From positions 133,959 to 197,958 of the IMG/VR virus record IMGVR_UViG_3300031603_000001: a stretch of DNA of 64,000 nt. The stretch is one strand, 5' to 3'. A program made the position numbers and the translations under genes. The first letter of the stretch is position 1, and the number at the start of each line of letters is the position of its first letter. The notes under the pieces are model-generated. The model did no database searches, was not told where the DNA came from, and worked only from the letters and a program-made list of their open reading frames with translations. The stretch is from a virus. Below are positions 29,798 through 39,652 of this stretch, piece by piece.

Positions 29798-30391
29798 TTA
29801 CTCTGTTACTATACTAGCTAAAGCGTCAGCTCTGTCATTACCTGGGTTACCAGAATGACCATTGATGTGCTTGTACGCTACGATGTACGCCTTGTTCTTA
29901 CTCATCAACTCTATATAAGCTTTGATGTGTATCTTAGCCAAGCCAACAGCGTTGACCTTCCACTCACCTAGTGGCCATTTGGCTACACCAACGTAATCAT
30001 GTACAATCACAACTGGTGTATCATTTTTCTTGGCCCACTGCATAGCATACATAGCGCCTGCCAACTCAGCGCCTATATTGTTACTCTCAATGAACGGGGT
30101 TGTGCCGCTATCAAAGGCTATCTCTTCCCCGTTCTTCCATATAGAGAATGCCCATCCTGCTTTGTTATTTCTGAAGCTACCATCAGTGTATGCCAGTACT
30201 TCAGTTGGTTTAGTTTCAACTACGAATGCCATCTCACTCTGATCAAGCCAGGCTTGTGCATCTGCTGTACTCTTGAAGCCCTTAAAATCATTGGCAACAC
30301 CAGTGACTAGAGCATCACATTCAGCCCATGTAGCTACGATGACGTTTGTTTTACGTCCTTGTTTAACTGCATAACAATTATATTTAGCCAT
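29798..30391 (-). CDS. rnhA: ribonuclease HI with N-terminal hybrid-binding (Cauli_VI) domain
   Basis: YAVKQGRK...TWAECDALVTG...FKGFKS; YTDGS, GAELAG, HDYVGV, GHSGNPGNDRADALA. Confidence 0.95.
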   Translation of the reverse strand: MAKYNCYAVKQGRKTNVIVATWAECDALVTGVANDFKGFKSTADAQAWLDQSEMAFVVETKPTEVLAYTDGSFRNNKAGWAFSIWKNGEEIAFDSGTTPFIESNNIGAELAGAMYAMQWAKKNDTPVVIVHDYVGVAKWPLGEWKVNAVGLAKIHIKAYIELMSKNKAYIVAYKHINGHSGNPGNDRADALASIVTE

Positions 30392-30408: not shown

Positions 30409-30434
30409 ACAGGCCCCACCGAAGCAGGACCTGT
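30409..30434 (-). terminator. cUUCGg-capped hairpin after the RNA polymerase gene
   Basis: ACAGGTCCTGC-TTCG-GTGGGGCCTGT, 11-bp stem; weak U-tract. Confidence 0.5.
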
Positions 30435-30450
30435 ATCTGTTGATGTACGT

Positions 30451-33400
30451 TTATTTGAAGTACTTCTCATCTTCAAATGTGCCATGAACTGCCTGGTTAC
30501 TCTTGACACTGAAGTCAGCATATGGATCTACTGATTCACGTGGCTTAGCAGTACGTAGCTTATTAACACGTTTAGCATCCATACCATCGCCTATCAACAT
30601 CCATGCTGATTGAGTATGAGCCATACCATCTGGTTCCCACTCAAGAGCAGGAAGAGAGATAATGATCTCTTCACTTGGACGAACAGCACTATATTCTGTA
30701 CCGTACTCCAGTGAAGCACCACGTAAGTATGGAACACCATCTTCAATCGTGATTGACTCAGGATCCAGGATAGGTTCATTGTTTGGATTGTACACACGTA
30801 CTAGGCGTGACTTAGTATCAGGCATGAAGGTCATTGGACCGCCAGTCATCTCTACCAAGCTACCATAGTTCAAGTGTACGATGTATCCACCGTCTGTTAA
30901 CAGTGGGTTAGCAGCATCAAGATACCGTTTAGTCTCTACTAGCCTAGCAGCTACTGGAATGCACTGACCAGCACCCTGTACCATCTCTACTACAGCAGAC
31001 ATATGATCTGACGTTAGCCCACCAGGACGTAGTTCAGACCACAGGTTCTTGATTGATGCAAGCTCAGCTGTATTGACACCATCTACTTCTTCATCGGAAT
31101 GTATCATCCGTCCAGCGAAGACTGCAAGTGGTTCAACACCATCTCTAAGAGCTATGACCTCTTCTTCAACACGTATAAGTACGGTGTTCCAGATGAAGTC
31201 CATGTAATGTAATGGGTCTTCGATCTGTGTGGCTAAGATATCTTCCACATCACCACCGGTATTGAAGTCAGTCATTAACGCATTAACATCAGCACGTGCC
31301 CATGGCATTTCTACCATTTCACGTAGGCTCTGAGCAGTTAAATGCGCTTTCTCTAGCTCTATATAGATCTGAGCTTCGTTCTTCTTGAGACGTACTTCCG
31401 TGCGAAACTTAGCACCCTTAATAGTCAACTCAATTGACTGTAATATAGGCGTTAGGTTAAGATACGGTTTCTCATCAGTACCGTCAGCGAGAACCTTGTT
31501 ATAGATAAGTCCACGATAATACATATTAGTGTACTTACCAATTGATGCACTACCACTGAATACTGTGATAGCCTGTATTGCCATACTCTCCATTGTGGCA
31601 GAGCTTCTACGTCTCTCTAGTCCATCTTTATCGATGTTCAGTCCGACTAGTTCATCGATTAAGCCGGTCCTAATGAGCTTGTCAGCAATGGGTCCACGTA
31701 TAGTCAGTCCACCATCACCATCACTATCTGTGTTTAACTCACCAGCTAGTCCTGCTTCAAGTACAACGAATGGTCCTATGTTAGTACGACCAACCACTTG
31801 TGCAACACCAGCAACGATGGGATATTTACAGAACAACTTGTCACCACGTACACCGGCAACAGGCTTACGAAGAGCGTTGATCTTCTTTGCATGCTCTTCT
31901 GTAACTGTGATAACCAAGCGATACTCAGTGCCATTGAATGGTCTGTGCATCACATAGTTTACTACAACACCTGCTAGTTTCTTAGCTACCCAAGGAAAGG
32001 TCTTACCAAGAGCTAACAGTGCTTCTTGAAGCTTAGAGTTAAGCTCAAGTACTTCGTAGTCTGGATCATCGTTACGAAATGCTTGCATCCTACGACCAGA
32101 CTCAGCCGATACGATCATTTCTTCGTAACTTGGTAGCTTACCACGTAGTATCTCGTCTTCAACAAGATCACGTACGATTGGATCATCTTGCATGAACTGC
32201 CAGAATTCAAAGCCTAGTCCAACAGCTTGACCCTTAACATTCCATATGTTATCATGGGTGATGATCATCCCATTTTCTTTACCATGACGTCCTAGGTACT
32301 CACCAGGGGCAACAGGGTGTACTTTGACATCATTCTCACAGATGACTAGGTCATAGGCTTCCCACTCTAATGGAAAGTCTAATTGCATAGCATTGCGAGC
32401 ATGTGCGTATCCAACCATAACTCCCTTACCTACTGAGTTACCATTGATCCGTACTCTGAACTGACCACTGTTGTGACCACCAAGAGCGGCACCATCGCCA
32501 GGAAGACCGACTGCTCGGAACTTTGCTTCAGATACTACCAGTACCCTTGTGTTGTTGTACACGAAGTACCTACCGTCTTTGCTACCGGCGGGTGTGAACA
32601 GCAAGGACAAGTAACCTATAGCTTCGTGAGCAAACGCTAAGTCACCTTCTGGCCAATTACAAGCGTAGAATGTACCCTTGTTTAGACCAGTGCCGCCCAT
32701 ATATTGAAAGCCCTCATCAAGACTGAGCTTTAACATATAGGATTGAAACTTCTGTTGGAAGGGTTTATTCTTCAACAGTTGTTTAGCTAATCTCTTATCA
32801 CTCACCTTGATGGTGTAAGAGACAGCATCCTTAATACCGAACAAGGCACCAAGACAGATACGTATTGCTACATTCCCTGCCTTCATGTCAGTGTTTGGTA
32901 CTGGTTTGTGGATCTTGAAATCAAGCACAGACTTCATACCATCACGAGTTCTTTTCATCACTGTGATAGGTATGAGCATGTGTGTAATCTCTGTTGACCG
33001 TTCATCACCCTTGGCAACCAGTTCGTCTAAGAACGCTTGGTTGTTACTGGTGTTAAAGATTGCGCTGATTATATCAGTTAGTGAACGCATCTTTTCCTTC
33101 CTCTCCTTGTCCGTGGCTATTACTAGAACAGCAACACTGGCAAGGCTTGTGGTCATCCTGAGCTGACCTGTTGATAGGGCAATGCCCATTACCAATATGG
33201 ACAAGGCGATTATGCCACCTCGTCTTGTACCCAGCATCCGTTGTCCTACGAATCCCAGGGCTTTCTTGGCCGTACTTATTACTAAGCGGGACCAGGCTAG
33301 TGATACTCTTACTATGTAACTAGCATAAAGTACCGCGATTATGGCCATCACTGCTGATTTAATAGCAGTATTGACCGATTTAATGAATAAGGATGTTAAC

Positions 33401-33591
33401 ACTGTCCCTATCACTGTTTCTGTTCTATCTGTACGAGCATAGAACTTGGTTAAGCCCTTGCGTCCTTTGATCAGGATGTAAGAACTAGAGAGCCCAAAGC
33501 GGTCTCTCATGGTTGGTGTGATAGCAGCCGATGCTACGATCACAGTTCCTGCTATAAGCAAGAACGCGACAAACAAAACGATTGAATACAT
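30451..33591 (-). CDS. YonO/QDE-1-like single-subunit two-barrel RNA polymerase (core likely starts at 33090; in-frame hydrophobic N-terminal extension)
   Basis: ordered motifs PGDG...GQFR...GKGVMV...DLVICENDVK, FCKYP, LNTDSDGD (31714-31728), IGKYTN, ELTIKGAK; core 879 aa. Confidence 0.75.
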   Translation of the reverse strand: MYSIVLFVAFLLIAGTVIVASAAITPTMRDRFGLSSSYILIKGRKGLTKFYARTDRTETVIGTVLTSLFIKSVNTAIKSAVMAIIAVLYASYIVRVSLAWSRLVISTAKKALGFVGQRMLGTRRGGIIALSILVMGIALSTGQLRMTTSLASVAVLVIATDKERKEKMRSLTDIISAIFNTSNNQAFLDELVAKGDERSTEITHMLIPITVMKRTRDGMKSVLDFKIHKPVPNTDMKAGNVAIRICLGALFGIKDAVSYTIKVSDKRLAKQLLKNKPFQQKFQSYMLKLSLDEGFQYMGGTGLNKGTFYACNWPEGDLAFAHEAIGYLSLLFTPAGSKDGRYFVYNNTRVLVVSEAKFRAVGLPGDGAALGGHNSGQFRVRINGNSVGKGVMVGYAHARNAMQLDFPLEWEAYDLVICENDVKVHPVAPGEYLGRHGKENGMIITHDNIWNVKGQAVGLGFEFWQFMQDDPIVRDLVEDEILRGKLPSYEEMIVSAESGRRMQAFRNDDPDYEVLELNSKLQEALLALGKTFPWVAKKLAGVVVNYVMHRPFNGTEYRLVITVTEEHAKKINALRKPVAGVRGDKLFCKYPIVAGVAQVVGRTNIGPFVVLEAGLAGELNTDSDGDGGLTIRGPIADKLIRTGLIDELVGLNIDKDGLERRRSSATMESMAIQAITVFSGSASIGKYTNMYYRGLIYNKVLADGTDEKPYLNLTPILQSIELTIKGAKFRTEVRLKKNEAQIYIELEKAHLTAQSLREMVEMPWARADVNALMTDFNTGGDVEDILATQIEDPLHYMDFIWNTVLIRVEEEVIALRDGVEPLAVFAGRMIHSDEEVDGVNTAELASIKNLWSELRPGGLTSDHMSAVVEMVQGAGQCIPVAARLVETKRYLDAANPLLTDGGYIVHLNYGSLVEMTGGPMTFMPDTKSRLVRVYNPNNEPILDPESITIEDGVPYLRGASLEYGTEYSAVRPSEEIIISLPALEWEPDGMAHTQSAWMLIGDGMDAKRVNKLRTAKPRESVDPYADFSVKSNQAVHGTFEDEKYFK

Positions 33592-33676
33592 TTAAGTATC
33601 CTTTCATTTTTTGATACATCTATCCCGTGACTGACCCACGTTATTCAGTCAAGATGTATCTATTATGTGGGTTTTG

Positions 33677-33721
33677 TAGGGCGTAGGGGAATCGAACCCC
33701 ATTGAATCTACCACACGCCCT
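33677..33721 (-). ncRNA. 45-nt mini-tRNA: acceptor + D-loop-like linker + T-arm, no anticodon arm
   Basis: AGGGCGT-GTGGTAGATTCAA-TGGGG-TTCGATT-CCCCT-ACGCCCT-A-CAA. Confidence 0.7.
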
Positions 33722-33735
33722 TCCTTACTTACTAG

Positions 33736-34146
33736 TTATGCACTAGCATCACTCAGCAGCTGATTGTATTGCAGCCAGTTGCGGTCTGCTCTTTCACTAA
33801 CTTCAAGGTAGAAGTCAGAGAGCTTTGTCTTCTCACTCACCAGCTCCCCGTTCTTCCATGTAGAGCGTATCCTAGCATGGGCTGATACTGCTATAGGCAG
33901 CTCAGGGTGTTTCTTTGATAGGGCACAAGCAAGTTTGTCAGCGTTAGCTTCTACAAACCATTGTACCTTATTGCCCCATCCTACCATTGCATTCACATTC
34001 CAAGTCGTATGGTCTCTGTCTAATGCGTACCCGGTCTCAGGTTCACGGTCAGGGATACTCATATGATCAGTGAAATCAAGCGCTTCGAACGCCTCTTTGT
34101 TAAGACGGTTAGCCTTCACTGTGTAATGCTCTTCTTGGGTACTCAT
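33736..34146 (-). CDS. hypothetical protein
   Basis: 136-aa ORF. Confidence 0.7.
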   Translation of the reverse strand: MSTQEEHYTVKANRLNKEAFEALDFTDHMSIPDREPETGYALDRDHTTWNVNAMVGWGNKVQWFVEANADKLACALSKKHPELPIAVSAHARIRSTWKNGELVSEKTKLSDFYLEVSERADRNWLQYNQLLSDASA

Positions 34147-39582: not shown

Positions 39583-39652
39583 GTCTACAGACAGGAGCCC
39601 TTTGGTGGGGCAGCACATAGCTGAGGTTCGAATCCAGACCCAGTCTGTAGAC
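39583..39652 (+). ncRNA. tRNA-like fold with 10-bp closing stem and stunted anticodon arm
   Basis: GTCTACAGAC/GTCTGTAGAC perfect stem enclosing GCCC-TTTGGTG-GGGC, AGC-ACATA-GCT and GGTTCGAATCC. Confidence 0.55.

What the first reader, a model, noticed from the sequence alone, without database searches (positions are those of the whole stretch)
33677..33721. 45-nt minimal tRNA (acceptor + T-arm + D-loop linker) in front of the RNA polymerase gene
Seen: a perfect 7-bp stem AGGGCGT/ACGCCCT stacked on GGGG/CCCC with loop TTCGATT; the two are joined by only GTGGTAGATTCAA, which keeps the D-loop TGGTAGA. It is followed by A-CAA like the real tRNAs and by a GATACATCT/AGATGTATC hairpin. Established: the acceptor-T minihelix is the unit recognised by RNase P, RNase Z, the CCA enzyme and EF-Tu. 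Inference: a natural minihelix acting as a decoy or as a processing site that sets the RNAP mRNA 5' end.
Basis: partly seen in the sequence, partly recalled or inferred. Interest (0 to 1): 0.7.

Follow-up and report, generated by a model that had tools for sequence, protein, structure and literature searches.

The report
Minimal tRNA mimic punctuating phage genes
A 45-base RNA fold between two genes of a 198-kb uncultured phage copies only the top half of a tRNA; the same fold recurs with different letters in many unrelated phages, usually right after a stop codon, so it probably marks where host tRNA-trimming enzymes cut phage messenger RNA, though no cutting has been shown.

Summary
The element is real, on the minus strand (33721-33677): a 12-bp acceptor+T helix, a TTCGATT loop, a linker keeping only D-loop TGGTA, then A-CAA, with no anticodon or encoded CCA. 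It starts 14 nt after a stop codon and ends 86 nt before a gene whose predicted fold is a single-subunit two-barrel RNA polymerase. Scans found about 30 such 37-48-nt elements with different stems in about 16 phage lineages; a model built without this sequence finds it at E 7e-8. Pairing ends at 12-13 bp, with no shared aminoacylation identity. 20 of 26 isolated copies start within 14 nt of a stop codon, against 53 of 230 isolated true tRNAs. In another lineage two copies flank a probable polymerase gene and survive 56% protein divergence with compensated stems. This phage's own distant relatives have plain hairpins here: no tRNA, no mimic. Best reading (0.55): a cis processing signal for host RNase P, working like plant mitochondrial t-elements or mascRNA. 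Rivals: decoy RNA (0.2), uncut barrier (0.12), remnant (0.1). No RNA data were available. I found no paper describing the class; this scan reported similar elements earlier on other phages.

The parts
33678..33721 (-). 44-nt mini-tRNA body: acceptor 5' strand 33721-33715 (33714 in the 8+4 register), linker with D-loop motif TGGTAGA (33713-33707), T stem 5' GGGG 33700-33697, T loop 33696-33690, 12-nt 3' strand 33689-33678
   Evidence: leave-one-out model 38.7 bits, E 7e-8
33674..33677 (-). Discriminator A73 followed by CAA (C74 present, CCA not encoded)
33722..33735 (-). 14-nt leader between the upstream stop codon and the predicted RNase P cut (before 33721)
   Evidence: the cut itself is inferred
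33736..34146 (-). Upstream 136-aa orphan ORF; its stop codon ends 14 nt before the element
   Evidence: no family, no homologue
33613..33660 (-). 48-nt hairpin in the trailer, followed by an A run rather than a U run, so not a sense-strand intrinsic terminator; possible 5' stabiliser of the cut polymerase message (inferred)
30451..33591 (-). 1046-aa single-subunit two-barrel RNA polymerase (NTDSDGD motif) with a hydrophobic, poorly modelled N-terminal ~180 aa; followed by an RNase H gene (29798-30391)
   Evidence: AlphaFold pLDDT 76; Foldseek QDE-1 E 1e-11, phage P74 gp62 and P32 gp64 E 2e-10; VIA-align Z 17.1, rmsd 4.5, 453 aligned to 8f5m; 21 homologues; RNase H by Pfam

Best explanation
The element is a cis-acting, tRNA-mimicking processing signal in a polycistronic phage transcript. 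SHOWN: it keeps exactly the parts that tRNA-end-processing enzymes read (T loop, a 12-bp coaxial acceptor+T helix, the D-loop GG that can dock on the T loop, a free 3' tail) and has lost the decoding parts. It belongs to a recurring phage class that sits just after stop codons. INFERRED: it is co-transcribed with the 136-aa gene and the polymerase gene; host RNase P measures 12 bp from the T loop and cuts before 33721, ending the upstream message 14 nt after its stop. The downstream piece then starts with the mini-tRNA, or, after an RNase Z-type cut after A33677, with the trailer and the 48-nt hairpin. Either gives the polymerase message a defined, structured 5' end and a decay rate uncoupled from upstream genes. 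A 45-48-nt RNA may be released as a by-product.
For: Class is real: 12 of 108 distinct viral pattern hits fold at score >=10, against about 2 expected (maximum 6-7 in 300 permutations); about 30 distinct elements in all. The motif scan gave 44 hits in viral contigs and 13 in 596 Gb of prokaryote genomes. Ruler: the outer five of the 12 pairs form in 27-31 of 31 elements, pair 13 in 18, pair 14 in 6, while the acceptor/T split slides between 4+8 and 8+4. PMC11143913 states that RNase P measures 12 bp from the T loop and cleaves acceptor+T hairpin models at the canonical site, and lists phage M3 and C4 RNAs and mRNAs as substrates. Position: 20 of 26 isolated elements start <=14 nt after a stop codon against 53 of 230 isolated canonical tRNAs (Fisher p 8e-8); 9 of 26 overlap or abut it against 5 of 230; by lineage 11 of 16 (p 1e-4). 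Several phages carry 2-4 copies between successive genes. Selection in an orthologous pair: both copies flanking an 852-aa DFDGD protein persist in a relative at 44% protein identity with changed but paired stems; a second orthologous pair (L019/L135) shows two compensatory changes. In four of six relatives of this polymerase gene the slot holds a hairpin followed by a U run, which fits a role in ending the upstream message. Precedent: t-elements of plant mitochondria (PMC1920247).
Against: No RNA data, so neither transcription nor cleavage is shown. The host and its RNase Z status are unknown. PMC11143913 notes that a missing 3' CCA lowers bacterial RNase P efficiency; A+1 rather than G+1 may be suboptimal too (own knowledge). 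This copy is known only from four near-identical contigs, so its own conservation is untested, and it is absent from all six distant relatives checked. Covariation counts (93% paired, 68 compensated cells) are circular because rows were picked for pairing. Copies are not independent, lineages were grouped by eye, and ORF ends came from a crude caller. Cutting does not change predicted accessibility of the polymerase start region (0.47 against 0.48). Homology between this polymerase and the 852-aa protein is not established (hhalign E 0.16 and 0.31).
Confidence: 0.55

Rival explanations
1. Trans-acting decoy: the point is the released 45-48-nt RNA, which binds a host tRNA-reading protein (anti-phage nuclease or sensor, CCA enzyme, peptidyl-tRNA hydrolase, EF-Tu, T-box) while offering no anticodon loop to cut.
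For: The genome holds many other anticodon-less or anticodon-remodelled tRNA bodies, an RNA ligase and a DUF2828 protein beside permuted tRNA-like RNAs, which points to conflict over tRNA. A few class members lie in tRNA clusters (L118, L125, L169). C74 is present in 13 of 31.
Against: Most copies are isolated between protein genes and hug stop codons more than true tRNAs do. No encoded CCA, no shared first pair or discriminator identity, no CCA enzyme in this genome, no promoter-like site directly upstream.
Confidence: 0.2
2. Uncut structural element: a compact elbow fold that blocks 3' exonucleases, pauses the phage polymerase or binds a phage protein, doing the job of the plain hairpins found in relatives without any tRNA enzyme cutting it.
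For: Relatives have hairpins in this slot; position right after stop codons; missing CCA lowers RNase P efficiency.
Against: A plain barrier would not need a 12-bp length, an invariant T loop and a D-loop GG. There is no U run after the element, so it is not an intrinsic terminator.
Confidence: 0.12
3. Non-functional remnant of a tRNA gene, for example tRNA-Leu(CAA), collapsed by short-repeat deletions.
For: The linker ends in TTCAA, which resembles a Leu(CAA) anticodon loop (resemblance from memory). No canonical Leu(CAA) or Leu(UAA) tRNA was found in the genome. The copy is absent from distant relatives.
Against: No relative has a full tRNA here. The 3' part of the linker is not conserved in the class. 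Independent deletions would hardly converge on 41-43 nt in most cases, and stems are compensated in orthologous pairs. Origin by deletion does not exclude present function.
Confidence: 0.1
4. Phage attachment site (3' end of a host tRNA) or a chance hairpin.
For: T-arm matches occur in unannotated stretches of mycobacterial phage and prophage records; partial tRNA genes from integration are common (PMC9897764).
Against: The 5' acceptor strand and D-loop motif are present, which an att site would not carry. No tyrosine integrase was found in the genome (serine recombinases not searched). Leave-one-out E 7e-8.
Confidence: 0.03

Closest known systems
t-elements of plant mitochondria (Forner et al. 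2007, PMC1920247)
   Same: tRNA-like fold with an intact T arm whose ends would coincide with mRNA ends made by RNase P and RNase Z; sits next to protein genes; does not decode.
   Different: Those are organellar, about 55-75 nt by the coordinates in the paper, with mapped ends. This one is 44 nt, in phage DNA, has no D stem or anticodon arm, and has no mapped ends.
mascRNA / MEN-beta tRNA-like (Rfam RF01684)
   Same: Best Rfam match over the full model length (20 bits); acceptor plus T arm used as a cut signal 3' of another RNA (function from my own knowledge).
   Different: Below the gathering score of 42.5; vertebrate; keeps small D and anticodon hairpins; follows a triple helix.
Synthetic acceptor+T minihelix substrates of bacterial RNase P (AT1, pMini; PMC11143913)
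   Same: 12-bp helix capped by a T loop, cleaved at the canonical site.
   Different: Those are laboratory constructs with CCA and little or no linker. This is natural, has a 13-nt linker with the D-loop GG, and lacks CCA.
8/4 allo-tRNAs (Mukai et al., PMC5389517)
   Same: 12-bp acceptor branch with a non-7/5 split; some occur in phages.
   Different: Allo-tRNAs are full cloverleaves with an anticodon and a long variable arm.
YrlA Y RNAs (PMC4201824) and the tmRNA tRNA-like domain
   Same: Top-half tRNA mimicry; some YrlA RNAs are cut by RNase P and receive CCA.
   Different: YrlA is circularly permuted and lies next to Ro60; tmRNA has G3.U70, CCA and a tag frame. None of these is present here.

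Membership tests
Canonical tRNA (RF00005) | Anticodon arm and D stem | tested here: not met
   13-nt unpaired linker only; not called by ARAGORN or Rfam
Canonical tRNA (RF00005) | 12-bp acceptor+T branch with TTCRANY loop and discriminator | tested here: met
t-element (works-like claim) | Intact T-arm motif in a tRNA-like fold next to a protein gene | tested here: met
   definition in PMC1920247
t-element (works-like claim) | Element ends coincide with mapped mRNA ends (RNase P or RNase Z cleavage) | not testable with these tools
t-element (membership) | Plant mitochondrial location | tested here: not met
   198-kb virus record with a phage terminase
mascRNA-menRNA (RF01684) | Score at or above the gathering threshold of 42.5 bits | tested here: not met
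   20 bits, E 0.2
allo-tRNA (8/4) | 8/4 or 9/3 branch of 12 bp | tested here: met
   8+4 is the minimum-energy fold
allo-tRNA (8/4) | Anticodon arm, long variable arm, D stem-loop | tested here: not met
   absent; definition
YrlA Y RNA | Permuted order (T arm before D arm) and adjacency to a Ro60 gene | tested here: not met
   order is acceptor, D motif, T arm; neighbours are an orphan ORF and the polymerase
tmRNA tRNA-like domain | G3.U70, 3' CCA, tag reading frame | tested here: not met
   G3-C70, A-CAA tail, both acceptor strands within 44 nt; only 15-nt partial tmRNA matches
Phage mini-tRNA class defined here (model R3) | Scores well above background with a model built without it | tested here: met
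   38.7 bits, E 7e-8, next best 16.6 bits
Single-subunit two-barrel RNA polymerase (downstream gene) | QDE-1/gp62-like fold with a DxDGD motif | tested here: met
   activity not tested

The most novel reading that the evidence does not exclude
Phages use a portable, roughly 42-nt 'cut here' tag, the smallest natural elbow mimic, with a D loop but no D stem, to impose mitochondria-style tRNA punctuation on bacterial messages. Here it would set the 5' end and lifetime of the phage RNA polymerase message. In the copies whose first base is the last base of the upstream stop codon (about a third), the cut would truncate the stop, so the message would be either inactivated as non-stop mRNA or completed by added A, as in animal mitochondria.
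Probability: 0.25. Interest if true: 0.8.

Novelty: new variant of a known kind. Interest (0 to 1): 0.6.

Why it matters
tRNA punctuation of messenger RNA is established for mitochondria. If these elements are cut as predicted, phages would be shown to do it in bacteria with a dedicated 42-nt signal that ARAGORN and Rfam both miss. That would add a layer of phage gene control, give a natural minimal substrate for bacterial RNase P, and offer a very short processing tag for multi-gene constructs. Natural acceptor+T modules also bear on the old idea that the top half of tRNA works as an independent domain. The prediction is sharp and cheap to test: a cut 12 bp from the T loop. If false, the class is still a real, unannotated family of phage RNA folds.

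Tried and rejected
(1) Exact and near-exact DNA scans of IMG/VR for this sequence found nothing; no GenBank phage encodes the polymerase; the 136-aa upstream protein has no homologue; the metagenome scan gave one distant partial locus. No close relative was found. (2) Model R1 and its pair count used a structure string off by one column and were discarded; R2 includes the window sequence, so its E-value for the window is not evidence. (3) The idea that cleavage frees the polymerase ribosome-binding site: no change in predicted accessibility. (4) A supposed second mini-tRNA at genome 121416-121368 was retracted; it pairs better (7/7) with an acceptor about 280 nt upstream of it and is the 3' half of an interrupted tRNA-Leu(GAG). 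(5) Intron reading, as for mini-introns in tRNAs: not applicable, since a stop codon precedes the element and no tRNA halves flank it. (6) Intrinsic terminator: not flagged, no U run. The scanner also missed the hairpins of relatives because their loops are long, so those are called terminator-like by fold and eye only. (7) AlphaFold of the 852-aa protein failed (pLDDT 38.5) and profile comparisons with this polymerase were not significant; its polymerase call rests on the DFDGD motif and language-model neighbours (RdRP family, score 0.95). (8) ARAGORN at a lowered threshold with introns gave 201 mostly spurious hits. (9) Eight literature searches found no paper on this class; the library lacks most subscription journals.

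Full report
Observation. The window is the last 64 kb of a 197,958-bp virus record whose terminase has only distant relatives among Moorella, Bacillus and Acinetobacter phages. On the minus strand, 33721-33678 forms a 12-bp helix capped by the T loop TTCGATT, with a linker holding TGGTAGA; A33677 and CAA follow. In tRNA numbering it is 7+5 with a T.T mismatch at 49.65; ViennaRNA prefers 8+4 with one G.U (-17.7 kcal/mol, z -2.0). There is no D stem, anticodon arm or encoded CCA. ARAGORN and Rfam miss it; the best sub-threshold Rfam match is mascRNA at 20 bits. The stop codon of a 136-aa orphan ORF ends 14 nt upstream. A 48-nt hairpin lies at 33660-33613, and the next ATG is 86 nt downstream.

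The downstream gene. The 1046-aa product has no Pfam match but 21 homologues. Its model (pLDDT 76) matches QDE-1 and the phage polymerases P74 gp62 and P32 gp64 (E 1e-11 to 2e-10; Z 17.1), and it carries NTDSDGD. An RNase H gene follows it.

Relatives at this slot. Four contigs with the identical protein carry the identical element, which says nothing about selection. Six distant relatives (L005-L008, L205, L206) have neither a tRNA nor a mimic upstream of the polymerase gene. Four of them have a hairpin followed by a U run there.

The class. A scan for a D-loop motif 1-12 nt before a T arm returned mostly true tRNAs, but 12 of 108 distinct hits from it and one follow-up scan had a local 12-bp helix scoring >=10, against about 2 in permutations. 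Further scans and models brought the set to 31 distinct elements of 37-48 nt, most 41-43 nt, in about 16 phage lineages and two cellular assemblies. The consensus linker begins TATGGTA. The comparable scan of 185,579 prokaryote genomes gave 13 hits, two of them members, so the class is mainly viral. A model built from 15 members without the window sequence finds the element at 38.7 bits, E 7e-8, with the next site at 16.6 bits. Pair counts on that alignment are high (93% paired, 68 compensated cells), but the rows were chosen for pairing, so I weigh two orthologous comparisons more. L019 and L135 differ by two compensated pairs. In phage G002, two copies flank an 852-aa DFDGD protein, with an RNase H-like ORF (by motif) two genes on, and two more copies lie upstream. 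A relative at 44% protein identity keeps both flanking copies with changed, still paired stems and a conserved trailer. That protein is probably a two-barrel polymerase too, though homology to the window's enzyme is not shown.

What is conserved. The T loop, the linker GG and the helix length are kept. Pairing holds in 27-31 of 31 elements over the outer five of the 12 pairs, in 18 at a 13th pair and in 6 at a 14th, while the split between acceptor and T stem slides from 4+8 to 8+4. First pairs and discriminators vary (A-U 12, G-C 5, others; A73 in 20), and none encodes CCA. That fits enzymes that measure from the T loop and not synthetases. PMC11143913 describes the 12-bp measurement by bacterial RNase P, correct cleavage of acceptor+T hairpin models, phage and mRNA substrates, and a preference for CCA. 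That bacterial RNase Z cuts CCA-less precursors after the discriminator, less well when C74 follows, is my own knowledge.

Where it sits. Of 26 elements outside tRNA clusters, 20 start within 14 nt of a stop codon and 9 overlap or abut it. For 230 isolated canonical tRNAs in the same loci the numbers are 53 and 5 (p 8e-8 and 4e-7). Counting lineages once gives 11 of 16 (p 1e-4). ORF ends came from a crude caller and lineages were grouped by eye. Several phages repeat the element after successive genes, often followed by a hairpin and a ribosome-binding site.

Mechanism. Shown: anatomy, class membership, length constraint, position. Inferred: co-transcription, an RNase P cut before 33721, an optional 3' cut after 33677, and separate fates for the upstream message and the polymerase message. 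I put this at 0.55. A released decoy RNA (0.2) gains from the genome's many other non-decoding tRNA bodies, RNA ligase and DUF2828 locus. It loses from the stop-codon bias and from the lack of CCA and of a CCA-adding enzyme. An uncut barrier (0.12) does not explain the 12-bp rule. A dead remnant of tRNA-Leu(CAA) (0.1) fits the TTCAA in this linker but not the convergence of the class. An att site or chance is unlikely (0.03). Cleavage does not appear to act by freeing the polymerase start region.

Comparison and novelty. It would work like plant mitochondrial t-elements (PMC1920247) and mascRNA but is a member of neither. It is not a tRNA, allo-tRNA (PMC5389517), YrlA (PMC4201824) or tmRNA. 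I found no paper describing the class. Earlier unverified notes of this scan describe similar elements in other phages and reach the same reading. They supplied the t-element lead and are not independent evidence. Verdict: a real member of an apparently undescribed phage class, a new variant of a known kind of processing signal, function untested. Interest 0.6.

Noticed in passing
window 22431-22510 (-) and 27425-27515 (-): tRNA bodies with intact acceptor, D and T arms but enlarged, sealed anticodon regions; the first passes Rfam tRNA, the second is missed by both tools.
   Followed up: partly
window about 39583-39652 (+): Another tRNA-shaped element with a long outer stem, a short inner hairpin and a GTTCGAATC loop (lead from e1-5815079).
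   Followed up: no
G000 126,297-132,374 (L208), minus strand: Seven repeats of a motif containing ACAGCAA, most ending in a GCAA- or GAAA-capped hairpin; four enclose circularly permuted tRNA modules (T arm before D arm). The first lies directly after a 478-aa DUF2828/DUF7788 gene. YrlA-like by layout, but no Rfam YrlA hit at the gathering score.
   Followed up: partly
G000 121,368-121,650 (L208), minus strand: Interrupted tRNA-Leu(GAG) whose two halves enclose an intact tRNA-Leu(TAG).
   Followed up: partly
G000 116,797, 118,311, 125,125, 125,553 (T-arm positions, minus strand): Further tRNA bodies with remodelled or inserted anticodon and variable regions.
   Followed up: no
window 33591-33088 (-): The polymerase ORF has a hydrophobic N-terminal extension of about 167 aa, also seen in homologues P0003 and P0009; a strong purine-rich ribosome-binding site precedes internal Met168, so two starts are possible.
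   Followed up: no
L005:13121-14479 and L008:4202-5506: Two relatives encode a CCA-adding-type enzyme (PolyA_pol plus HD) right after or near the polymerase gene; this genome has none.
   Followed up: no
L170:3180-3225 (-): A class member in a cellular chromosome directly after tRNA-Ile and tRNA-Ala, the layout typical of an rRNA spacer (rRNA not confirmed); single copy found.
   Followed up: partly
L069, L100, L114, L117, L123, L124: A related 53-55-nt form that keeps a full or nearly full D arm and lacks only the anticodon arm; several lie just before a probable terminase small-subunit gene.
   Followed up: no
L019, L031, L135, L151, L153, L209, L224, L240: The first base or two of the element are the last bases of the upstream stop codon, so a canonical RNase P cut would truncate the stop.
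   Followed up: no
L182:4910-4945, L250, L249: Even shorter T-loop hairpins with 1-9-nt linkers, close to true minihelices.
   Followed up: no
window about 30415-30436 (-): CUUCGG-capped hairpin between the polymerase and RNase H genes, conserved in L204 at 60% protein identity.
   Followed up: no
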